DNA of 32,000 bases, from assembly GCA_020634015.1 (NCBI GenBank), contig JACKCN010000001.1:434779-466778 (forward strand). The letters are read 5' to 3'. The translations under genes and the position numbers were made by a program. The first letter of the stretch is position 1. The number at the start of each line of letters is the position of its first letter. Below, one piece after another: positions 11,929-21,806 of this stretch. The notes beneath the pieces were generated by a model that worked only from the letters and a program-made list of their open reading frames with translations, was not told the origin of the DNA and searched no databases. Source of the stretch: Candidatus Delongbacteria bacterium. GTDB lineage: Bacteria > CAIWAD01.

Positions 11929-14877
11929 ATGTCTTGTTCTCATCCGTCCTTCCGTCGTGCCCTGCAGCTGGGCAGTTGCCTGTTGGCTCTGGGGTTGGTG
12001 CCACTGGGCAGTGCCCTTCCCGGGACTGCCGTGCGCAGCGCGGATGGGGCCCATCTGGCGGCCCTGATCGGCAGCCCCGGTGCTCCTCTCTGGCCGGCCT
12101 CGGGCAGTGCGGTCGCCACGGCACGGGCTTTCGTGCAGACCTGGGGAGATGCACTGGAACTGCAATCCCAGGGTATTGACCTGCAGCTCAAGCGCCAGGG
12201 CAAGGATCCCGCAGGAGCCGAGCATCTGGCCTATGACCTGTTCTACAAGAATCGTCTGCTCTTCGGGCAGGGAGTGGTGCTGCACTTCGACAGCAAGGGC
12301 GCGCTGGTCTCGCTCAACGGCCGTGTGCCCCGTCTGCCGGGCAAGGTGGACGCGGGTCAGCCGATTGACGTGCAGCAGGTCGCCGACCGTCTGATGGACG
12401 TGACCCGTGACTGGAACCCGCGGATCGGCAAGGCCGAACTGGTCTGGGTCAACCTGGCCTGGCTGGGCCTGCCCGACTCGGGCCTGCGTCTGGCCTGGCA
12501 CATCGAGGGCGCCGATTTCGAGCGCGCCGTCGAGCAGGCGATCCTGGTGGATGCGCTCTCGGGCGAACTGATGAATTCCTGGAGCCTGATCCACACGGTG
12601 CAGGACCGGCGGATCTACAATGGCAATGGCGGCTCGGCGCTGCCCGGCACCCTCGCACGCAGCGAGGGGCAGGCGGCCACCGGCAATTTCGACATCGACG
12701 CGGCCTACGACTACTACGGTGACACATACGGATACTTCTGGCGTGGTCACGGGCGCGACAGCATCGATGGGCTGGGCCTGCCGATGGTGGCCACCACCCA
12801 TTCCACCTCGCCGCCCTGCCCCAACGCCTACTGGAGCGATGGCCTGCAGCAGATGGTGTTCTGCAACGGCACCGTCACCGACGACGTGGTGGCCCACGAA
12901 CTGACCCACGGTGTCACCAGCAACACCGCCGGGCTGATCTACCAGAACCAGTCGGGCCAGCTCAACGAAAGCTTCTCCGACGTGTTCGGCGAGCTGGTGG
13001 ACCTGTACAATGGCGACGCCAGCGTGGCCGGTGCCCCCGGTGGAGTCGCCTGGCCGGCACACGGCACGGGCCCCGGGCTGGATACACCCAACAACGCCCG
13101 CAGCAGTTGCAGCACCAGTCACACGGACGGTGTGCGCTGGCTGATCGGCGAAGATGCCGCGGCCTTCGGGGGTGAGATCCGCGACATGTGGGATCCCACC
13201 TGCCTGGGCGACCCGGATTACGCCAACAGCCCGCTGCAGACCTGCCCTTCCGGTGACTCGGGCGGTGTGCACTCGGGCAGCGGCATTCCCAATCACGCCT
13301 TCGCGATTCTGGTGGACGGCAAGGACTACAACGGCTATTCGGTCAGTGGCATCGGCACGATCAAGGCCGGGGCGATCTGGTACCAGACCCTGGCCTGGTA
13401 CCTGGTGCCCTCCTCCGATTTCGAGGACGCCTATCTGGCCTTCAATCTGGCTGGCAGCTCGCTGCTGGGAGTGAACCTGGCCGATCCGCGCACGGGCCTG
13501 GCCTCCGGCCACATTGTGGACAGTTCGGACCTTGTCCAGCTTGACCGTGCCCTGCGCGCGGTGGAAATGAACACCGAAGGCGCCTGCGGCGGTGGCAGTT
13601 CGGTGCTGAGTTCCGATGAAATCAGCGCCTGCCCCGCGGGTGACACATTCTTCAGCGAGGACTTCGAGGCGGGTCTGGGCAGCTGGACCGTGTCACACAG
13701 CGCCATGCCCACTCCCTACGACTGGGTCGGCGCCGGCAACCTGCCCGTAGGGCGCGCGGGCAACGCCGCCTGGTGCGAAGACCGCAACGTGGGTGATTGT
13801 GCGGGACAGGACGAGACGGGCAGCCATACCCTGACCAGTCCATGGATCCAGTGTGGCACGTTGGCTGGTCGCCCGCTGCTCTCCTTCCGGCACTTCGTGA
13901 ACACCGAGGGTGGCTACGATGGCTGCATCGTGCAGGTGCAGACTGCCGCTGGTACCACGACACTGGGCTTCGATGCCTGGCTCTTCAATCCGCCCAACGC
14001 TCCCCTGAATGCTGGCAATCCCTTCAGCGGCATCCCGGGTTTCACGGGCAACACCTCGAGCTGGGGGCACTCACTGGCGGACCTCGGACCCGTATTGGCC
14101 GGGGCCGACAGCCTGCGTCTGGTCTTCAGCCTGGGCAAGGACGGCTGCACGGGCAGCACGGGCTGGTATGTGGATGATGTGCGCCTGATCGATTGTGGCG
14201 ACTGTGACCAGGACGGCAATGACGACCAGTCGCAGTTCCTGGTCTCGGGCACCCACTTCATGCCCATGCCCTCGACCCTCTTCGGCGAGAGCTGGAGTCC
14301 GGGTGATCTGCCGCCGGCCGATGACACCGTCACTCTGTGTGTCAGCGCGCGCGGCGACCTGAGTTCCCCGACCGAATCGGTCACGGTGGACCTGAACGGC
14401 ACCGTGCTGGGCACCCTCTTCGCCAGCGGCGCCTCCGACTGCCCCGGCAGCCCCTCCCGCCGGGAACTGGACCTGAGTCCCGCGGTGTTCAACGCGGCCC
14501 TCGGCGCCGGTGCGGACGTGTTCGGTTTCCATTCCTCGTCCGATGTCAACACCACGCTCTGTGGGCCGAGCAATCACATGGTGGTGACCCTGAAGTACCG
14601 GCACGGCAGCGCGGGTGATCTGGACAACGACTGGATCCCCGATGGCTGCCAGTCCCTGCTGCCGGCACCTGCCGCCGAACTGAGCTACAGCGGCAATTCG
14701 CTGACGCTCAGCTGGAACCCGGTACCCGGCGCCAGTTCCTACCGTGTGCTGGTGACCGTGGATGGAGTGGTTGAAGATCTGGGCACCACCGCCGCCACCA
14801 GCATGGATCTGAGTTCGCGTCTGGCCGTCGGGCCATCCAATCAGGTGGAAACCGTGCGCGTGATCGCACTGGACTGA
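11929..14877 (+). CDS. Secreted M4 (thermolysin/vibriolysin-like) zinc metalloprotease with propeptide and long C-terminal extension (jelly-roll/MAM-like region, DxDxDG loops, FN3-like end module)
   Basis: ORF 11824..14877 trimmed to ATG 11929 (AGGAG 6 nt upstream). Signal peptide MSCSHPSFRRALQLGSCLLALGLVPLGSA. M4 catalytic motifs are VVAHELTHGV (HExxH), GQLNESFSDVFG (third zinc ligand Glu) and GGVHSGSGIPNHAF. C-terminal end: LTLSWNPVPGASSYRVLV. Confidence 0.9.
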   Translation: MSCSHPSFRRALQLGSCLLALGLVPLGSALPGTAVRSADGAHLAALIGSPGAPLWPASGSAVATARAFVQTWGDALELQSQGIDLQLKRQGKDPAGAEHLAYDLFYKNRLLFGQGVVLHFDSKGALVSLNGRVPRLPGKVDAGQPIDVQQVADRLMDVTRDWNPRIGKAELVWVNLAWLGLPDSGLRLAWHIEGADFERAVEQAILVDALSGELMNSWSLIHTVQDRRIYNGNGGSALPGTLARSEGQAATGNFDIDAAYDYYGDTYGYFWRGHGRDSIDGLGLPMVATTHSTSPPCPNAYWSDGLQQMVFCNGTVTDDVVAHELTHGVTSNTAGLIYQNQSGQLNESFSDVFGELVDLYNGDASVAGAPGGVAWPAHGTGPGLDTPNNARSSCSTSHTDGVRWLIGEDAAAFGGEIRDMWDPTCLGDPDYANSPLQTCPSGDSGGVHSGSGIPNHAFAILVDGKDYNGYSVSGIGTIKAGAIWYQTLAWYLVPSSDFEDAYLAFNLAGSSLLGVNLADPRTGLASGHIVDSSDLVQLDRALRAVEMNTEGACGGGSSVLSSDEISACPAGDTFFSEDFEAGLGSWTVSHSAMPTPYDWVGAGNLPVGRAGNAAWCEDRNVGDCAGQDETGSHTLTSPWIQCGTLAGRPLLSFRHFVNTEGGYDGCIVQVQTAAGTTTLGFDAWLFNPPNAPLNAGNPFSGIPGFTGNTSSWGHSLADLGPVLAGADSLRLVFSLGKDGCTGSTGWYVDDVRLIDCGDCDQDGNDDQSQFLVSGTHFMPMPSTLFGESWSPGDLPPADDTVTLCVSARGDLSSPTESVTVDLNGTVLGTLFASGASDCPGSPSRRELDLSPAVFNAALGAGADVFGFHSSSDVNTTLCGPSNHMVVTLKYRHGSAGDLDNDWIPDGCQSLLPAPAAELSYSGNSLTLSWNPVPGASSYRVLVTVDGVVEDLGTTAATSMDLSSRLAVGPSNQVETVRVIALD

Positions 14878-14985: not shown

Positions 14986-17403
14986 TCAGGGACCGACCAC
15001 GACCACCCGGTAGAGCGCCAGCGAAGGGGCGGCCGGCAGCAGTTCCGCATGACCGGTGCCCGTGACGGTGGCGACCAGGGTGGCCGGCGACAGGGGCTGA
15101 GCCGGATCGCTCAGGCGATGAACCTGATAGGCCAGTGCCTGGGGAACGGCCGACCAGCTCAGGCTGAGAAAGCTGCCAGAATGAGTGATCTGCAGGTCCG
15201 TGACCGACTGCAGGGGCGGAATCAGGTCGGCCAGGCTGCGCGGCTCAAGTTTGGGCAGGTCGAAACTCCAGTGCATGGTGCCGATGATCGCGCCAAAGGA
15301 TTCGCCGACCGAAGGGGTATGGGCGAAGTTGAGATCATCCACCACCAGGCTGGCGCCACTGTCCATCACTTCCCACTCACCGAAGCCCAGGTCGGTCTGA
15401 CTGACGGTGACCGACGGGACCCGCACCAGCACACTTTCCCAGTCCTCGAGCGCGGCCGTGGCACAATCGATCTCGACCGGTTCGGGAAGAGCTGCCGTGC
15501 CGATCACACCGAAGGCGCTCACGGAGGTGATTTCCGTGAGCCCGAAGTACTCGCTGACCGTGCCCGTCACGCTCACACGATCGCCGATCTGGGCACTCTG
15601 CCCCGGAGCGTAGACATGCACGCCATTCCAGGCTCCGGCAGCATCCTGAACCACCCAGGCATTGCCCGCCAGGGCCGCCGCCACCACCGTGCCCTCGATC
15701 ATCACGCTTTGCCCCGCCAAGGGCGAATCCCCCGAGGGATCCGTGGTGTACTGGATCTCATGGATCGCGGTGGGCACGACCTGCACCGATCCATAACGGG
15801 CCACGAATTCCTGATAGTACTGGTTGGCCAGATTGGCGTCGTGCAGCACCAGCAGGTTCTCGTCGTTGACCGTGTTGGCCGCCGTGCTGTAATTCGTGCT
15901 GCCCATGATCACCACCGGATCGCTGTCGGGATGATTGGCATCGATCAGGATGTACTTGTGATGCAGCAGGCCGCCCAGATTGTCAAGGATCACGGGGGCG
16001 GGCGGGCTCCAGGGACTGCTGCCCGTGCCGGTCATGTTGTTGTATTGTGAGTACACGTCGATCTGGTCGGCATCAAAGACTCCCTCGACCAGCACGCCGG
16101 CCTGATGCCGGGCGCGCATCGCGTCGGCCACGTCGATCCGGGTGAAGGAAAAGGCGCAGAACTGGATCTCATGGTCGGCGCTGGCCAGCAGGCTGGCGAT
16201 GTTGCTCATGACCGCATCGCTGGGCGAGAAGAAACTCTGCACCGCAATGCTGTCCACCTGGGCGCTGTGCGAGGTGTTGTTGGTCTTGCGTGAGCCAAAC
16301 CGGCTGAGGCTGGCATTGGGTGTGTCGCCGCTGGACCCCCACATCTCGTCGAATTCCGCGGTGTAGATCGCGGCCAGCGCATCGGACTGGATCACCATCA
16401 GATTGTTGGCGTCGTTGTTCAGACCACCGGCATTGTAATTCCAGGAACCGGAGCTGAGCACGGCCTGGCCCGCCGGAGCGCCGGCCCGGGCGTCCGCGAT
16501 CAGAATCTTGTTGTGCATCAGGCCCGTGCCGTCATTGAGACCGAATTCGTCGTCGATCACCGGAATGCCCGCGCTCTCCAGCGAGCTCAACACACTGCCG
16601 CTGTGATAGTCCGCCTCGGTGATCACGCGCACGACCACTCCCCGTGAATGAGCGGCCAGGATCGCGTTGCCGATCTGGCTGTCGGTCAGCGAATAGAGAC
16701 ACACGTCCAGCGAGTGCTGGCTCCCGTTGATCAGCGCAAGAGCCGGGGTGTAGAAGTTGGCGTTGCCGTTCGCGGGCTGCCAGCTGGCCACGGCGGTATT
16801 GACCGTGCGATTGAAGTACACGCTCACGGCCCCGGTCGTGGGCGGCTGTGTGCCTCCGTCGGATTGAGGAGTGGGCGCCTGCACCACGAAATCCGCGGGA
16901 CAGTCGTCGCTGTCGCTGCCGCTGGGCTGGCGGGCCATCGAGGAACCCGAAGGCGTGGATCCAAAGGACACCACGCCGGGAAAGGAGCCCCCCTCCCAGG
17001 CCACCGCATCGACGATGCCAGTGTATGGGCCCGTGCTCAGGATCAGCTCGTCGCCCGTATTGCCCAGGGCGAAAGCGGCCACCAGATCGGGAGCGAATCC
17101 GAAGACCGTGGTGAAGGTGGCGGCGTCCTTGGCGATGACCAGTCGCTGGCCCGCCCCGAGCACGGTCCCGGCGGGCAACTGGCCGTAATACTCGCCACCG
17201 CCGGATGTTTCCTCATCGCCGAAGTACCAGCCGGACAGATCGACCGCGGCCGCCGTGGGATTGTAGAGTTCGACGAATTCATCCAGGTCGCCGCTGACTT
17301 CGCCATCGTAGAACACTTCATCGATGACAACGTGGGACGCGATCTGGGCCGGGGCCAGACCGGCCAGGCACAGCAGCAGAGCAAGGGAAAAGGACGCGCG
17401 CAT
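14986..17403 (-). CDS. Secreted lamin-tail-domain (LTD) protein with two HKD phospholipase-D-family motifs, an ExeM/NucH-like OB module and a C-terminal FN3-like module; putative extracellular nuclease
   Basis: ORF 14986..17499 trimmed to ATG 17403. Signal peptide MRASFSLALLLCLAGLAPAQI. LTD signature VVIDEVFYDG...DEFVELYNPTAAAVDLSGWYFGD. HKD 1 is GLMHNKILIAD and HKD 2 is GLLHHKYILID. OB-like module: IHEIQYTTDPSGDSPLAGQSVMIEGTVV...IGDRVSVTGTVSEYFGLTEI. End module: FLSLSWSAVPQALAYQVHRL. Confidence 0.85.
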   Translation of the reverse strand: MRASFSLALLLCLAGLAPAQIASHVVIDEVFYDGEVSGDLDEFVELYNPTAAAVDLSGWYFGDEETSGGGEYYGQLPAGTVLGAGQRLVIAKDAATFTTVFGFAPDLVAAFALGNTGDELILSTGPYTGIVDAVAWEGGSFPGVVSFGSTPSGSSMARQPSGSDSDDCPADFVVQAPTPQSDGGTQPPTTGAVSVYFNRTVNTAVASWQPANGNANFYTPALALINGSQHSLDVCLYSLTDSQIGNAILAAHSRGVVVRVITEADYHSGSVLSSLESAGIPVIDDEFGLNDGTGLMHNKILIADARAGAPAGQAVLSSGSWNYNAGGLNNDANNLMVIQSDALAAIYTAEFDEMWGSSGDTPNASLSRFGSRKTNNTSHSAQVDSIAVQSFFSPSDAVMSNIASLLASADHEIQFCAFSFTRIDVADAMRARHQAGVLVEGVFDADQIDVYSQYNNMTGTGSSPWSPPAPVILDNLGGLLHHKYILIDANHPDSDPVVIMGSTNYSTAANTVNDENLLVLHDANLANQYYQEFVARYGSVQVVPTAIHEIQYTTDPSGDSPLAGQSVMIEGTVVAAALAGNAWVVQDAAGAWNGVHVYAPGQSAQIGDRVSVTGTVSEYFGLTEITSVSAFGVIGTAALPEPVEIDCATAALEDWESVLVRVPSVTVSQTDLGFGEWEVMDSGASLVVDDLNFAHTPSVGESFGAIIGTMHWSFDLPKLEPRSLADLIPPLQSVTDLQITHSGSFLSLSWSAVPQALAYQVHRLSDPAQPLSPATLVATVTGTGHAELLPAAPSLALYRVVVVGP

Positions 17404-17608
17404 GATGTCGGTTCCTGGAGTTCGGTCCACTCTCCCGGTGCGGCAGGAGGCGGAGACGGGTGCTGGAAATCGGGTCGTTGGGTGCGTGGAAGGAGCCAAT
17501 CGGCGGGCTCGCAGTCAATCTTTTTGTCCTCAGGAGGAATTTCCCGCCCCGGGCGTCCGGCGTCCGGGGGCCCGATTCGCTACATTCCGGCCGTTCAAGG
17601 AAGCGGCC

Positions 17609-18424
17609 ATGTGCACCATTTTTCTCGCCACGGATCCACACCCCGACTGGAGCCTGCTGCTGCTGGGCAACCGGGACGAGTTCCATGCCCGGCCCAGCCA
17701 GGACTGCGGCTGGTGGCCCGACACACCCGGACTGCTGGCCGGACGGGATCTGCAGCGGGGAGGCATCTGGCTGGGTGTGACCCGTCGCGGCCGATGGTGC
17801 GCCACGACCAATGTGCGCCGTCCGAGCGCACACGAACCGCCCGCGAACGCCCCCAGTCGCGGCAAACTGGGCCTGGAGTTTCTGGCACGCTCCCAGCGTC
17901 TGCACGACTGGCTGGATCGCCTGGCCGAGAGTGCGGGCTCATTTCCCGGATACAATCTTCTGTTGGGCGAAGGGGCTTCGGGGTACTGGGTCAGCAACCG
18001 GTTGCCGCTGGTGTCCGCGGCCGGGCAGTCGATCTGCCGCCGCCTGGACCCGGGCATCCATGGTCTGAGCAATGGCACCCTCAATGAAGACTGGCCCAAG
18101 GTGCGCGAGGGTCGCCTGCGCCTGAAGCAGCTGTTGCTGCAACAGGCCAGACCCGAAGAAGATGCCCTGCTGGACCTGCTGCTTGACCAGCGCACCTGGC
18201 CCGACGCTCAATTGCCCGACACGGGAGTGGGCCCGGAACTGGAGCGCCGCCTCTCGGCCCTGTTCATCCGGGGCCGCGAGTACGGCACGCGCGCCAGCAC
18301 CTTGCTGATCCGCGAACACAGCGGCCGCTGGATCCTGCGCGAACGCCGCTGGGCTCCCGAAGGGGTTCCCGCGGGCGACAGTCGCTTCGAATTCATGGAA
18401 GAAAGCCAGGAAACGCGCACGTGA
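17609..18424 (+). CDS. NRDE-family protein (TANGO2 homologue, Ntn-hydrolase-like N-terminal Cys)
   Basis: ORF 17324..18424 trimmed to ATG 17609 (AAGGA about 7 nt upstream). MCTIFLATDPHPDWSLLLLGNRDEFHARPS contains the Met-Cys start and the eponymous NRDE motif. Confidence 0.8.
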   Translation: MCTIFLATDPHPDWSLLLLGNRDEFHARPSQDCGWWPDTPGLLAGRDLQRGGIWLGVTRRGRWCATTNVRRPSAHEPPANAPSRGKLGLEFLARSQRLHDWLDRLAESAGSFPGYNLLLGEGASGYWVSNRLPLVSAAGQSICRRLDPGIHGLSNGTLNEDWPKVREGRLRLKQLLLQQARPEEDALLDLLLDQRTWPDAQLPDTGVGPELERRLSALFIRGREYGTRASTLLIREHSGRWILRERRWAPEGVPAGDSRFEFMEESQETRT

Positions 18425-20346
18425 AGTCTGCCACACAGTTCAAGGGACCGGCCGCCGCGCGTGTCACGATTCCCTCCGGCTCCGGTATGGGTCGCCGTCG
18501 TGCGCTGGTCCTGGTGGGCATTCATCTGGCGATTGGCGCACACATCCTGCACTGGAAACTGACGGGAAGCACCCTCAGCCCCCTGGAACCCTCCGAGGCG
18601 ATCGCCTTCTCGCGGGACGGGCTGATCAATGCGGGCACTCTGCTCCTGCTGCTGGCGATTCTGGTCACCGCGCTCTTCGGGCGCTTCTTCTGCGGCTGGA
18701 GCTGCCATCTGCTGGCCATCCAGGACGGCTCGCGCTGGCTGCTGGCGCGCCTGGGGCTTCAGCCCCGCCCGCTTGAATCACGCGTGCTGCGCTGGGTGCC
18801 CATGCTGGCCTTCGTCTACATGTTCCTCTGGCCGCTGCTGGCGCGCCTGCTGCAGACACGCGAGGTTTCCGGCCGTCTGGAGCTGATGACACCCACCTTC
18901 TGGGCCACCTTTCCCGGCTGGACCCTGGGCATTCTGACCTTCGTGCTCTGCGGGGCCCTGATCGTCTGGTTTCTGGGCGCCAAGGGTTTCTGCACCTACG
19001 CCTGCCCTTATGGCGCCGCCTTCACCGTGGTGGACAAGGTCTCGCCCCTGCGGATCCGGGTCAATTCCTCCTGCGCGGGCTGTGCGCTGTGCACGAGCGT
19101 CTGCACCTCGGGTGTCAACGTGAGCCGCGAGGTGCACACTCACGGCATGGTGGTCAGCAGCGGTTGCATGAAGACGCTGGACTGCGTGGCGGCCTGCCCC
19201 AACAAGGCCCTGCGCCTGGGCTGGGGACTGCCCGCCCTGGGTCGCGCGGCGGCACGCACGCGTGATCGGCGCACACGCGGTCTGATCTGGATCGAAGAAG
19301 GAATGCTGTTGCTGCTGGCGCTGGCCTCCTTCCTGGCCCTGCGCGGTCTCTACGGCAAGGTCTCGTTTCTGCTGGCTCTGGGAGTCGCGGTGATGGTGGC
19401 CTTCCTGGGGCTCAGCGTCTACCGGCTGTTCCGGGAACACCAGTTCCGCGTGCAATCCTGGGAGCTGCGCCGGGACGGAGAGCTCACCGGAGGGGGCAGA
19501 GTCTTTCTGGGAATGGCGGCGATCGTCATGCTCTTCGTGGCGCATTCTGGATGGATCCAGTGGGAAAGCTGGCGTGCGATCAGCGCTCTCGATCGGGCCA
19601 GCCTGCTGGAAGGTGAGGCCGGTGACACACAACTGGAGATCGCCAGCCAGCATGCCCGACTGGCCGTGTCGTACGGAGTGGCGCCGGACCACCGTATGCA
19701 GATCCTGCTGGCCCGCGTCGCCCAGCGCAGGCAGGATCCCGGCGCTGCCGAAATGCATTACCGGCTGGCCCTGAGGGCCGAACCGCGCAGCCATGCGCTG
19801 CAGGTGGAGCTGGGGGAATTTCTGGTGGCCCACGGGCAGGTCAAGGAAGGCTGGACACTGGTCGAAGAAGGCCTGAAGGGCGCCCCGGGACTGGAACGCG
19901 CGCGCCAGAGCCTGGGCCTGCACTGGCTGGAGACGGGGCGCAGCACCGAAGCGGCCAGACTCTTTGCCGAGGGCGAAAGAATGGACCCGGGTGATCCCGC
20001 CTGGCCCGCGCATCACGGCAATGCCCTGCTGCTCAGCGGCGATCCGGAGCGGGCCGAACTGGCCTGGCAACGGGCGCTGGACCTCCAGCCAGGATACCGG
20101 CCCGCCCTGCGCCGACTGGCTGAATTGCGCTGCCAGCAGGGTCGTTTTCCCGAAGGCCTGTCCATGATCGACGAGCTGCTCGCGGACTCCCCCAAGGACG
20201 CGGAGCTGCAGCTGCTGGCCGCCCGAGCCGCCTGGGCCGGAGGCCAGCGCGAGCGCGCGCGCCTGCACCTGGACCTGGCCCAGCGTTTCGGCGCCAACGC
20301 GGCGGGTGTCAACGAACTCCAGGGCCTGTTGACCCAGGACCCCTGA
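18421..20346 (+). CDS. Membrane polyferredoxin (NapH/FixG/YccM-like, 4Fe-4S) fused to a C-terminal TPR domain
   Basis: 641 aa. FCGWSCHL and FCTYACPYG motifs in TM regions. Two ferredoxin-type Cys clusters, CAGCALCTSVC and CMKTLDCVAACP. More TM helices follow, then about 270 aa of TPR-like repeats (AEMHYRLALRAEPRS..., AELAWQRALDLQPGY...). The GTG start at 18421 overlaps the NRDE stop (GTGA). An alternative start is ATG 18487. Confidence 0.8.
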   Translation: MKSATQFKGPAAARVTIPSGSGMGRRRALVLVGIHLAIGAHILHWKLTGSTLSPLEPSEAIAFSRDGLINAGTLLLLLAILVTALFGRFFCGWSCHLLAIQDGSRWLLARLGLQPRPLESRVLRWVPMLAFVYMFLWPLLARLLQTREVSGRLELMTPTFWATFPGWTLGILTFVLCGALIVWFLGAKGFCTYACPYGAAFTVVDKVSPLRIRVNSSCAGCALCTSVCTSGVNVSREVHTHGMVVSSGCMKTLDCVAACPNKALRLGWGLPALGRAAARTRDRRTRGLIWIEEGMLLLLALASFLALRGLYGKVSFLLALGVAVMVAFLGLSVYRLFREHQFRVQSWELRRDGELTGGGRVFLGMAAIVMLFVAHSGWIQWESWRAISALDRASLLEGEAGDTQLEIASQHARLAVSYGVAPDHRMQILLARVAQRRQDPGAAEMHYRLALRAEPRSHALQVELGEFLVAHGQVKEGWTLVEEGLKGAPGLERARQSLGLHWLETGRSTEAARLFAEGERMDPGDPAWPAHHGNALLLSGDPERAELAWQRALDLQPGYRPALRRLAELRCQQGRFPEGLSMIDELLADSPKDAELQLLAARAAWAGGQRERARLHLDLAQRFGANAAGVNELQGLLTQDP

Positions 20347-20414
20347 GCCTGCCGCATCGATGATTTGTATACGCGAGTCGAAGGTCACCCCCCAGCTGCA
20401 GAAATGAATTCCGA

Positions 20415-21806
20415 ATGCCGCTCGCTTCCCGTTCCGATTCCGTGCCGGAAGGTCTCCGTTCCTGGCAGCCCCCGACCCGTTCGCAGATCCTGAAGCTGGC
20501 CCTGCCGGCGGCGGGCAGTTTCATCCTCAGCAACTTCTACAACATCAACGACCTCTATTTCGCGGGCCGGATCAGCCAGGACGCCAACAACGCCATCGGT
20601 CTCTGCATGATGGTGCTGATCTTCAATGCGGCGTTCATCGTGCTGGCTTCGCGCGGGGCACTGTCGCTGGTGGCGCGCCTGACCGGGGCACGTGATACGG
20701 AAGCCGCTGGCCGCGCGGCCGCCCAGGGCATCCTGCTCAGTTTCTGCATCACGATTCCGGTGGCCGTGCTGGGCTGGCTGATCGCTCCCCACCTGCTGGC
20801 CTGGATGGGTGGACGCGACGAGGTACTGCTGCTGGCCACCCGCTACCTGCGCATGATCTATCTGGGGTTCCCGGTGCTGGCCTTTCAGCCCATGATCGAC
20901 TCGATCTTTCTGGCCCGCGGCAACTCGCGCACGGTCTTCCAGAACCAGTTGATGGCCACGGGTCTGAACACGGCTCTCAACACGGTGGTTGTCTTCGCCC
21001 TGCACGGAGGCCTGGCAGGAATCGCCGCGGCCAGCATTCTCTCGCGTGCCATTGCCGGTGCCCGTGGGTTCTGGTTGTTGACCCGGGGCCGCAATCCGTT
21101 GCCCTTGCCGCCCATGCTCAGCTGGCGCCCACGCATGTCCACCCTGCTGGAAATGATCCGGGTCGGCATTCCGGCAAGTCTCTCGGTGGCCTTCTATTCG
21201 GGCATCTTCATGGTGCTCAATCGCCTGCTCTCGCGCTTTGGGCAGGAGGCCTTCGGAGTGCTGGGCATCGGCATCCGCGGGATCGAGTCGATCGGGTTCA
21301 TGGTGTTGATGGGATTCGGGGTGGCGGCCTCGGCGCTCAGTGGCCAGGCCATTGGCGCGGGACGAGCCGACAGTGCGCGTCTCACGGGTTGGCGGGTCAC
21401 CAGCGCCGCACTGCCGATCGCTTTGTTCTTCAGTCTGGTCTGGTGGTTCCTGCCCCTGCCCCTGATCGGTCTGTACACCCAGGATCCGCGTGTCACGGAA
21501 TTGACCGTGGTCTACCTGCGCATGGCGGCCATCGCCAATCTGTTCCAGCTGATCGAGAACATTCCCGGCGACTGTCTGAGCGGTGCCGGTGTGCCCCGCA
21601 GGCAGTTCATGGTCTCGGTTCCCGGCAACCTGCTGCGCATCCCGCTGGCCTGGGGTCTGGTGGAGTATACAAGCCTGGGCATCAATGCCGTCTGGTTGGC
21701 GATCCTGATTTCCGCGGTTCTCAAGGGACTGGCCATGCTGGCCGTCTTCCGTTTCGCGGACTGGCCCGAGGAAGCGGCACGCAAGCTGCATCGCGCGCTG
21801 GATTGA
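20415..21806 (+). CDS. MATE-family efflux transporter
   Basis: 463 aa with 12 hydrophobic segments. The N-terminus [30 protein letters not shown] is typical of the MATE (NorM/DinF) family. Confidence 0.9.

What the first reader, a model, noticed from the sequence alone, without database searches (positions are those of the whole stretch)
14986..17403. Unusual extracellular-nuclease architecture: LTD + two HKD (phospholipase D) motifs + ExeM/NucH-type OB module + FN3-like end
Known LTD-bearing extracellular nucleases of the ExeM/NucH type combine the lamin-tail domain and an OB-like module of the I-x-x-IQ...GD-x-V-x-V-x-G-x-V-x-E-(F/Y)-x-G-L-T-(E/Q) pattern with an endonuclease/exonuclease/phosphatase catalytic domain.

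Here the same accessory modules are visible:
- LTD: DEFVELYNPTAAAVDLSGWYF
- OB-like: IHEIQYTT...GDRVSVTGTVSEYFGLTEI

The catalytic part is instead a duplicated HxKxxxxD PLD-superfamily unit (HNKILIAD, HHKYILID), as in Nuc-type nucleases. The OB module also sits C-terminal to the catalytic domains.

This suggests domain replacement within a secreted DNA-degrading enzyme. I do not recall this combination being described.
Basis: partly seen in the sequence, partly recalled or inferred. Interest (0 to 1): 0.6.

Follow-up and report, generated by a model that had tools for sequence, protein, structure and literature searches.

The report
Secreted PLD-type nuclease, rearranged domains
This gene encodes an exported enzyme that joins DNA-binding-type modules to a two-lobed phospholipase-D-family cutting domain whose nearest studied relatives are nucleases; it is a rare domain-order variant of a large, biochemically untested family of probable extracellular DNA-degrading enzymes.

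Summary

By sequence the catalytic core is closest to the nuclease branch of the PLD superfamily: Zucchini, Nuc and NucT. Lipid enzymes score far lower.

The OB module matches the ExeM/NucH N-terminal region and the OB region of SpnA. Its model resembles HIN-200 dsDNA-binding domains.

The LTD/OB + PLD combination is not unique. It is a large unnamed family (1,079 clusters at E<=1e-30), mostly in FCB-group bacteria. This scan has already noted that wider family on other DNA. In 10 of 80 relatives' loci the gene follows a TonB receptor and a DUF5689 protein, as in the ddb DNA-utilisation loci.

Two things are unusual here:
- The OB module lies after the catalytic domain, as in only 7 of the top 150 representatives.
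- The tail is not a recognised T9SS sorting domain. It belongs to an unmodelled FN3-like family that ends 57 ORFs in this genome and has 42-113 copies per genome across its class.

Most likely it is a secreted, probably metal-independent, extracellular nuclease. No activity has been tested. I rate it a new variant of a known kind, of moderate interest.

The parts
14986..17403 (-). Whole gene, 805 codons plus stop (stop at 14986-14988)
   Evidence: ORF list and translation. The start at ATG 17403 agrees with the N-termini of relatives. AGGAA lies 8 nt upstream of the ATG.
17344..17403 (-). Sec-type signal peptide, residues 1-20 (basic n-region, hydrophobic core, A-P-A-Q end)
   Evidence: Read directly from the sequence. 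Relatives have equivalent N-termini. No signal-peptide predictor was available, so the cleavage site is inferred.
16996..17343 (-). Lamin-tail domain (LTD), residues 21-136
   Evidence: Pfam PF00932, E 1.7e-16, 61 bits against a cut-off of 34.3. Model confidence here is only moderate, pLDDT about 50-78.
16834..16995 (-). Ser/Gly/Pro/Thr-rich linker, residues 137-190, predicted disordered
   Evidence: pLDDT below 50 over residues 128-190.
16324..16833 (-). PLD lobe 1, residues 191-360, with HKD motif 1 (H297, K299, D304; window 16492-16515) and the G-S-x-N motif (S320, N322)
   Evidence: PLDc_2 at 223-355. H297, K299, D304, S320 and N322 are invariant in 48 aligned sequences. pLDDT is above 90. 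Motif coordinates verified.
15784..16272 (-). PLD lobe 2, residues 378-540, with HKD motif 2 (H481, K483, D488; window 15940-15963), G501-S502-x-N504 and N513/E515/N516
   Evidence: Second PLDc_2 stretch. The residues listed are invariant in 48 sequences. Matches Nuc 1byr and NucT 6ehi. Motif coordinates verified.
15238..15768 (-). Tandem-OB nucleic-acid-binding-type module, residues 546-722, of the ExeM/NucH / DUF5689 superfamily
   Evidence: - NF033681 model positions 30-116.
- Profile A4 hits the OB region of SpnA (9sf8) at 7e-8 and RPA2 at 0.002.
- 22 of 35 aligned homologues match DUF5689.
- The model has pLDDT 87.6 and pTM 0.82.
- Foldseek's best hits are HIN-200 dsDNA-binding domains: p202, IFI16, p204 and AIM2.
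14989..15237 (-). FN3-like C-terminal domain, residues 723-805; candidate lineage-specific sorting or anchoring domain
   Evidence: - No Pfam or NCBIfam model matches it. It is not PF18962 and not TIGR04131.
- The iterated HMM finds it in 85 ORFs of this genome, 57 of them within 10 residues of the stop.
- 42-113 copies per genome in 11 of 11 same-family or same-class genomes, 0-3 in 9 genomes outside the class.
- The profile hits the Fn3-like protein 3mpc.

Best explanation
The gene encodes an exported, modular phosphodiesterase of the PLD (HKD) superfamily that most likely degrades extracellular DNA, and possibly RNA too.

**Proposed mechanism**
1. The Sec signal peptide takes the protein across the inner membrane.
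2. The C-terminal FN3-like domain, shared with dozens of other secreted hydrolases in this lineage, probably directs export or surface retention. It may act through the type IX secretion system the genome encodes.
3. Outside the cell, the tandem-OB module, and perhaps the LTD, hold the nucleic acid.
4. The two HKD lobes of one chain form a single active site, as the Nuc homodimer does.
5. One histidine attacks the phosphodiester to form a phospho-histidine intermediate and the other acts as general acid/base, without a metal ion.
6. The products would feed phosphorus, nitrogen and carbon scavenging, or remodel the eDNA matrix.

**Shown here:** domain identities, intact and invariant catalytic motifs, sequence proximity to PLD-family nucleases, an OB fold of a DNA-binding type, and the genomic context of relatives.

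**Inferred:** the substrate, metal independence, the export route and the physiological role.
For: - **Catalytic motifs.** Both HxKxxxxD...GSxN motifs are present, and they are invariant across 48 family members.
- **Nearest relatives by sequence.** The family profile ranks PDB entries as Zucchini/MitoPLD 1e-25, Nuc 1.3e-17, NucT 9e-14, then Serratia PLD 7e0m 1.7e-8, PLD3 exonuclease 2.4e-7, a poxvirus nicking-joining enzyme 5.7e-7 and PssA 0.015. The single sequence gives the same order.
- **NCBIfam.** Only DNA-related PLD models appear: NucT, DrmC and DpdK. No cardiolipin or phosphatidylserine synthase model appears at E<=1.
- **Fold.** The two-lobed core has pLDDT above 90. It matches two-HKD single-chain enzymes, including the PLD3/PLD4 5' exonucleases.
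- **OB module.** It matches ExeM/NucH and SpnA OB regions and is HIN-200-like. Published work supports DNA binding for this kind of module:
  - In ExeM the OB region is essential for nuclease activity and the LTD enhances it (PMC6085458).
  - The DUF5689 protein DdbD is the proposed DNA-binding partner of a TonB transporter (bioRxiv 10.1101/2025.03.18.642099).
  - A DUF5689 protein is needed for natural transformation in Riemerella (PMC8459023).
- **Context of relatives.** In 10 of 80 loci the order is TonB receptor, then DUF5689 protein, then OB-PLD gene. All lie on one strand, and the DUF5689 gene ends 11-81 nt before the PLD gene. A receptor lies within the flank in 23 of 80 loci.
- **Context in this genome.** The 1105-aa paralog follows an adenosine deaminase gene.
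- **Export.**
  - SprA (656.7 bits) and the PorU sortase (551.8 bits) are present, plus a PorV-like protein that scores below its cut-off.
  - Relatives carry a PF18962 tail where this protein has its FN3-like tail.
  - The tail family sits on S8 subtilases, the M4 protease and a CBM20 protein.
Against: - No enzyme of this LTD/OB-PLD family has been assayed, so the substrate is inferred.
- The best whole-chain structural match is a lipid-active bacterial PLD (7e0m, Serratia plymuthica, PMC8004604). Fold alone cannot separate nucleases from lipid enzymes.
- Zucchini's relative MitoPLD is named a cardiolipin hydrolase in the PDB.
- HIN-like Foldseek matches are modest, with TM 0.35-0.42 and E about 1e-4.
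- The window protein's own OB segment does not reach Pfam DUF5689 by itself.
- The window gene has no TonB receptor or DUF5689 neighbour, and the genome has no close DdbC/DdbD pair.
- The tail is not a recognised T9SS domain. About a third of its copies are internal, so it may be an ordinary FN3 domain.
Confidence: 0.68

Rival explanations
1. It is a secreted phospholipase D or phospholipid-modifying enzyme that acts on membrane lipids of prey, hosts or vesicles. The LTD and OB modules would serve as surface or membrane-targeting domains.
For: - The top whole-chain structural hit is the lipid-active Serratia PLD 7e0m.
- JGI's automatic name for relatives is 'phosphatidylserine/phosphatidylglycerophosphate/cardiolipin synthase-like enzyme'.
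- LTDs have been proposed to direct proteins to membranes (PMC6085458).
Against: - Sequence profiles put nucleases far ahead of lipid enzymes: 1e-25 to 9e-14 against 1.7e-8 and 0.015.
- No lipid-synthase NCBIfam model hits.
- The OB module belongs to a DNA-linked superfamily.
- Relatives sit in ddb-like DNA-uptake loci.
- The JGI name is a generic label, not a tested function.
Confidence: 0.1
2. It is a phosphodiesterase for another extracellular anionic polymer or for RNA only, for example teichoic-acid-like or phosphoglycan polymers. The OB/LTD modules would bind that polyanion.
For: - HKD enzymes cleave many kinds of phosphodiester.
- OB folds also bind oligosaccharides and RNA. AspRS and LysRS anticodon-binding domains are among the hits.
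- Zucchini, the best sequence match, acts on single-stranded RNA (established knowledge).
- One own-genome protein joins LTDs and a DUF5689-like module to a carbohydrate-binding module, CBM56.
Against: - The module's nearest characterised contexts are DNases (ExeM, SpnA) and DNA import (DdbD).
- Relatives lie beside DNA-uptake-type transporters.
Confidence: 0.15
3. It is a catalytically inactive surface DNA-binding protein or adhesin that merely keeps a PLD fold.
For: The same genome has LTD-OB proteins with no catalytic domain at all: 601 aa, and an 1181-aa LTDx2-CBM56-DUF5689 protein.
Against: - All HKD and GSxN residues of both lobes are intact here and invariant in 48 relatives. That pattern indicates selection on catalysis.
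Confidence: 0.03

Closest known systems
Nuc (IncN plasmid pKM101, PDB 1BYR), NucT (Helicobacter pylori, 6EHI) and Zucchini/PLD6 (4GGJ and others): the nuclease branch of the PLD superfamily
   Same: Each lobe is a PLDc_2 domain with HxKxxxxD and GSxN. These are the best PDB sequence matches, at 1e-25 to 9e-14 with the family profile. The expected chemistry is a metal-independent phospho-histidine mechanism (established knowledge for Nuc).
   Different: Those enzymes are small, 155-220 residues, with a single HKD that works as a homodimer, and they have no accessory domains. Here the two lobes are fused in one chain and flanked by LTD, tandem OB and an FN3-like tail. The scores (61.6 bits) are far below the NucT equivalog cut-off of 297.
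ExeM / NucH / Xds extracellular nucleases (NCBIfam NF033681) and Streptococcus pyogenes SpnA (PDB 9SF8)
   Same: A signal peptide, an LTD, a tandem-OB module of the same superfamily and a C-terminal sorting or anchoring element. The role is extracellular DNA degradation. OB is essential and LTD is stimulatory in ExeM (PMC6085458).
   Different: Their catalytic domain is a metal-dependent EEP fold placed after the OB module. Here it is a double HKD unit placed before the OB module, and no EEP domain is present. The genome has its own true ExeM/NucH, at 489.7 bits.
The unnamed about 750-1100-aa (LTD)-OB-FN3-PLDx2-T9SS-tail proteins of Bacteroidota, Ignavibacteriota, Eisenbacteria and others, often in ddb-like loci (ddbABCDEF of Bacteroides thetaiotaomicron, bioRxiv 10.1101/2025.03.18.642099)
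   Same: A homologous PLD core, 37-46% identical with invariant catalytic residues, and the same kinds of accessory module. A paralog of this type lies in the same genome.
   Different: - The OB module is C-terminal rather than N-terminal to the core.
- The OB subtype is closer to the ExeM kind: the own-genome LTD-OB proteins score 1e-18, against 3e-8 for the paralog's OB.
- The tail is FN3-like, not PF18962.
- There is no TonB receptor or DUF5689 neighbour.
- The nucleases characterised in the ddb paper are not stated to be PLD-type.
Mammalian PLD3 / PLD4 lysosomal 5' exonucleases
   Same: Single-chain two-HKD enzymes that act on nucleic acids. They are strong structural matches, E about 1e-16 and TM 0.6-0.67 on the target.
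   Different: Only 12-17% identity. They are membrane-anchored lysosomal glycoproteins without LTD or OB modules. Whether the window enzyme cuts internally or from an end is unknown.

Membership tests
PLD (HKD) superfamily | Two HxK(x)4D motifs, each with a downstream GSxN, in a two-lobed alpha/beta fold | tested here: met
   PLDc_2 twice, E 1.7e-39. Motifs at 297-304 and 481-488 are invariant in 48 sequences. The core has pLDDT above 90 and matches two-HKD structures.
Nuc/NucT/Zucchini-like nuclease branch | Sequence closer to PLD-family nucleases than to lipid-acting PLDs or synthases | tested here: met
   Profile against PDB: Zucchini 1e-25, Nuc 1.3e-17 and NucT 9e-14, compared with lipid PLD 7e0m at 1.7e-8 and PssA at 0.015.
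Nuc/NucT/Zucchini-like nuclease branch | Equivalog-level match to NucT models | tested here: not met
   61.6 bits against a cut-off of 297 for NF010492. The other NucT models score lower still.
Nuc/NucT/Zucchini-like nuclease branch | Demonstrated metal-independent nuclease activity | not testable with these tools
   Needs enzyme assays.
ExeM/NucH family extracellular endonuclease (NF033681) | Full-length model match including the EEP catalytic domain (cut-off 300 bits) | tested here: not met
   39.6 bits, covering model positions 30-116 only. There is no PF03372 hit. A different gene of the genome does meet the cut-off, at 489.7 bits.
ExeM/NucH family extracellular endonuclease (NF033681) | LTD plus OB accessory modules | tested here: met
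   LTD at E 1.7e-16. The OB segment hits ExeM/NucH proteins P0075, P0083 and P0084 at about 1e-8.
T9SS cargo | C-terminal sorting domain of type A (PF18962/TIGR04183) or type B (TIGR04131) | tested here: not met
   Pfam gives no hit on the tail. The gene is absent from the 139 PF18962 matches in the genome. TIGR04131 finds nothing, though it also rang in no control genome.
T9SS cargo | The genome encodes the T9SS machinery | tested here: met
   SprA 656.7 bits and PorU 551.8 bits, both over their cut-offs. A PorV-like protein scores 188.6 bits, below its cut-off. The GldM search was uninformative.
DUF5689 (PF18942) / DdbD-type DNA-binding module | Match to PF18942 | tested here: inconclusive
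   The window segment alone gives no hit at E<=0.01, but 22 of the 35 homologues aligned with it do. The fold is HIN-like, as the paper reports for DdbD.
ddb-like DNA-utilisation locus | Nuclease gene adjacent to a TonB-dependent receptor and a DUF5689 protein | tested here: not met
   The window neighbours are an M4 protease and a TANGO2 operon. The genome has no close DdbC/DdbD pair. The feature is met for relatives in 10 of 80 loci.

The most novel reading that the evidence does not exclude
Two untested ideas could both be true.

1. The LTD/OB-PLD proteins are the main metal-independent extracellular DNases of FCB-group bacteria.
2. The FN3-like C-terminal domain is a previously unrecognised class of secretion or surface-sorting signal. 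It would be an additional T9SS cargo tag, or the tag of another pathway, used by roughly 40-110 proteins per genome in an uncultured bacterial class.
Probability: 0.3. Interest if true: 0.6.

Novelty: new variant of a known kind. Interest (0 to 1): 0.42.

Why it matters
Extracellular DNA is a major pool of phosphorus, nitrogen and carbon in sediments and soils.

- **Enzyme type.** The extracellular nucleases studied so far are mostly metal-dependent (EEP, EndA, SNase types). A large, widespread family of secreted HKD-type enzymes would work without divalent cations. That matters in chelating or metal-poor settings and for EDTA-tolerant nuclease reagents.
- **Misannotation.** The family is currently mislabelled as 'cardiolipin synthase-like', so DNA-foraging capacity in FCB-group genomes is probably under-counted.
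- **Modularity.** This window shows that the LTD, OB and PLD modules are freely re-ordered.
- **The tail family.** The lineage carries a second, unmodelled C-terminal domain family on many secreted hydrolases. This is a concrete lead for how these uncultured bacteria sort their exoproteins.

Tried and rejected
- **Mixed alignment A2.** MAFFT placed the OB fragments onto the PLD columns. I discarded it and built separate alignments, A3 for full length plus PLD cores and A4 for OB modules.
- **GldM search, TIGR03517.** It found nothing, but it also rang in no control genome, so it says nothing.
- **TIGR04131 search.** Same limitation.
- **Synteny with L001, L003 and L004.** Only the gene itself is shared. 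The closer relative P0003 shares the TANGO2/polyferredoxin/MATE side.
- **Promoter and terminator scan.** No site found.
- **Literature searches.** LTD + PLD + nuclease, and T9SS + PLD nuclease, returned nothing. The marine-sediment eDNA paper mentions LTD but no PLD enzyme.
- **Organism name.** It is an uncultured T9SS-bearing lineage.
- **'Simple circular permutation of the 1100-aa form' considered and not adopted.** The window's OB is closer to the OB of non-catalytic LTD-OB proteins than to the paralog's OB. Independent module acquisition is at least as likely.
Full report
**1. Observation**

The ORF at 14986..17499 (-) is the longest frame in its region. Starting at the ATG at 17403 it gives an 805-residue protein, P0001. 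Its N-terminus aligns with relatives of the same length.

There are exactly two HxKxxxxD motifs, at residues 297-304 and 481-488.

Domain searches confirm each module:
- Pfam finds an LTD at 21-136 (E 1.7e-16) and PLDc_2 twice (E 1.7e-39).
- NCBIfam aligns residues 589-669 to positions 30-116 of the ExeM/NucH model (E 2.9e-10). It also gives weak NucT, DrmC and DpdK hits, and no lipid-synthase model.

**2. Catalytic core**

In an alignment of 48 family members, a set of residues never varies:
- H297, K299, D304, S320 and N322 in lobe 1.
- H481, K483, D488, G501, S502, N504, N513, E515 and N516 in lobe 2.

The AlphaFold2 model has mean pLDDT 79. The core at 191-540 is mostly above 90, the LTD is weak, and residues 128-190 are disordered.

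Foldseek matches the whole chain to single-chain two-HKD proteins. The Serratia plymuthica PLD 7e0m comes first. Then come the PLD3/PLD4 5' exonucleases and vaccinia F13, followed by PLD1/2 and PssA.

7e0m is a lipid-active enzyme (PMC8004604), so fold alone does not settle the substrate. Sequence does discriminate. With the single protein the PDB hits are Zucchini/MitoPLD (6e-15), Nuc (1e-4) and NucT. The family profile gives this ranking:

| PDB match | E-value |
|---|---|
| Zucchini/MitoPLD | 1e-25 |
| Nuc | 1.3e-17 |
| NucT | 9e-14 |
| Serratia PLD 7e0m | 1.7e-8 |
| PLD3 | 2.4e-7 |
| PssA | 0.015 |

The core therefore belongs with the nuclease branch, but it is not a NucT equivalog (61.6 bits against a cut-off of 297).

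**3. OB module**

Residues 546-722 align with 34 homologous segments (A4). Twenty-two of the 35 aligned segments match Pfam DUF5689, although the window segment alone does not.

The A4 profile hits the N-terminal OB region of PDB 9sf8/9sf9 at 7e-8 and RPA2 at 0.002. 9sf8 is Streptococcus pyogenes nuclease A (PMC13601614).

A separate model of the module is confident, with pLDDT 87.6 and pTM 0.82, and shows two beta-barrels. Its best Foldseek matches are HIN-200 dsDNA-binding domains (p202, IFI16, p204, MNDA, AIM2). Single OB folds follow. The scores are modest, E about 1e-4 and TM 0.35-0.42.

Published work links this kind of module to DNA:
- DdbD, a DUF5689 protein, was likened to p202 HIN and proposed as the DNA-binding partner of a TonB transporter (bioRxiv 10.1101/2025.03.18.642099).
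- A DUF5689 protein is needed for natural transformation in Riemerella (PMC8459023).
- In ExeM the OB region is essential for nuclease activity and the LTD is stimulatory (PMC6085458).

**4. How common the architecture is**

The word-indexed search found few full-length relatives: P0003 at 63%, P0004 at 58% and P0005 at 43%. It also found dozens of about 1100-aa proteins with LTD, PLDc_2, an FN3-like Pur_ac_phosph_N domain and a T9SS tail.

Domain mapping of 80 species genomes shows that the usual order is OB-(FN3)-PLDx2-tail. The window order occurs only in L001, L003 and L004.

The exhaustive search counts 1,079 representative clusters at E<=1e-30. The main classes among the best 150 are:

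| Domain order | Representatives |
|---|---|
| OB-PLD | 49 |
| PLD alone | 32 |
| LTD-OB-PLD | 9 |
| LTD-PLD | 7 |
| PLD followed by OB | 7 |

The seven with PLD before OB are two LTD-PLD-OB-CT, two PLD-OB and three OB-PLD-OB.

A PLD-core tree puts the window type into one clade with an LTD-PLD-T9SS-tail protein from KSB1 and a bare PLD from a Gemmatimonadota bin. Support is 97/92. The clade is nested among OB-first forms under midpoint rooting only.

Named members carry only generic labels: 'hypothetical', 'PLD-like domain-containing' or 'cardiolipin synthase-like'. I found no paper on the combination. Earlier notes of this scan describe the wider family on other DNA.

**5. Context**

In the window, the gene converges on an M4 protease and diverges from a TANGO2/polyferredoxin-TPR/MATE group. 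The P0003 locus shares the latter side.

In relatives, neighbours sampled in Bacteroidota loci are DUF5689(+DUF5017) proteins or CarboxypepD_reg+Plug TonB receptors. Counted over all 80 loci:
- A receptor lies within the flank in 23.
- The full row receptor, DUF5689 protein, OB-PLD gene occurs on one strand in 10. In these the DUF5689 gene ends 11-81 nt before the PLD gene.

This mirrors ddbC-ddbD plus nuclease. The window genome has no such pair.

The window genome does carry other related genes:
- A canonical 1105-aa paralog with a PF18962 tail, directly downstream of an adenosine deaminase.
- A true ExeM/NucH enzyme.
- Several LTD/OB proteins without a catalytic domain.

Among 20 relatives:
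- The canonical about 1100-aa form is found in all 8 same-family genomes.
- The window type is found in 2 of those 8 and in all 3 same-class genomes.

**6. The tail**

The last roughly 75-83 residues match no Pfam or NCBIfam model. An HMM iterated inside the genome finds the domain in 85 ORFs. In 57 of them it ends within 10 residues of the stop.

Carriers include S8 subtilases, the neighbouring M4 protease and a CBM20 protein. A crude signal-peptide heuristic is positive in 35 of 47 carriers, against 37% of control ORFs.

The genome has SprA, PorU and a PorV-like protein. It also has about 110-139 ordinary PF18962 tails, and this gene is not among them.

The FN3-like family has 42-113 copies per genome in all 11 same-family or same-class genomes sampled, and 0-3 in nine genomes outside the class. 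A sorting or anchoring role is a reasonable inference, at roughly even odds, but it is not shown.

**7. Verdict**

The protein is most likely a secreted HKD-type extracellular nuclease (confidence about 0.68). It has ExeM-like substrate-binding modules in an unusual order and a lineage-specific C-terminal domain.

It is a new variant of a known kind. The principle of a modular secreted nuclease is known. The PLD-based family is widespread but unstudied. The particular arrangement here is rare.

Noticed in passing
window 14989-15237 (-) and 14617-14874 (+); G000 genome-wide: An unmodelled FN3-like domain of about 75 residues ends 57 ORFs in this genome (85 ORFs carry it). It has 42-113 copies per genome in the 11 same-family or same-class genomes sampled and 0-3 in nine genomes outside the class. 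It sits beside about 110-139 ordinary T9SS PF18962 tails and is a candidate second sorting signal.
   Followed up: partly
G000:C13:112319-115633 (L093; L125:8320-11634): A canonical 1105-aa paralog (LTD-OB-FN3-PLDx2-Por_Secre_tail) lies 76 nt downstream of an adenosine deaminase gene on the same strand. This hints at a link with nucleoside catabolism.
   Followed up: partly
G000:C11:7280-9853 (L124): A genuine ExeM/NucH-family nuclease (489.7 bits, EEP domain at the C-terminus) lies in the same genome. No LTD was detected in it and it has no FN3-like tail. The organism therefore has both metal-dependent and HKD-type candidate exonucleases.
   Followed up: partly
G000:C1:991175-992977 (L094); G000:C10:85803-89345 (L096); G000:C12:233166-235391 (L095): Secreted proteins built only from LTD and/or OB (DUF5689-like) modules plus a sorting tail, one with a CBM56. 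They have no catalytic domain and may be surface DNA-binding proteins.
   Followed up: no
L030, L032-L035, L040, L042, L045, L080 (Bacteroidota loci): An operon-like row of TonB-dependent receptor (CarboxypepD_reg+Plug), DUF5689(+DUF5017) protein and OB-PLD gene. The DUF5689 gene ends 11-81 nt before the PLD gene. It looks like a ddbC/ddbD-type locus in which the nuclease is PLD-type.
   Followed up: partly
P0091, P0095, P0101, P0114, P0116, P0176 (representative proteins): Giant proteins of about 1150-1900 residues carry three to six copies of the ExeM-type OB module, some interleaved with LTDs, and no PLD core was detected in them.
   Followed up: no
L025 and L030 (genome contigs records): Records labelled Synechococcus sp. 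and Anaerolineaceae carry family members that branch among FCB-group sequences. L030 is nearly identical to a Bacteroidetes bin (L061). This is probably bin contamination or mislabelling rather than transfer.
   Followed up: no
window 17609-21806 (+) and L113:1642-5683: The TANGO2-like gene, the polyferredoxin-TPR fusion and the MATE pump keep the same order beside the PLD gene in a relative whose PLD protein is only 63% identical. This is stable chromosomal context rather than a mobile island.
   Followed up: no
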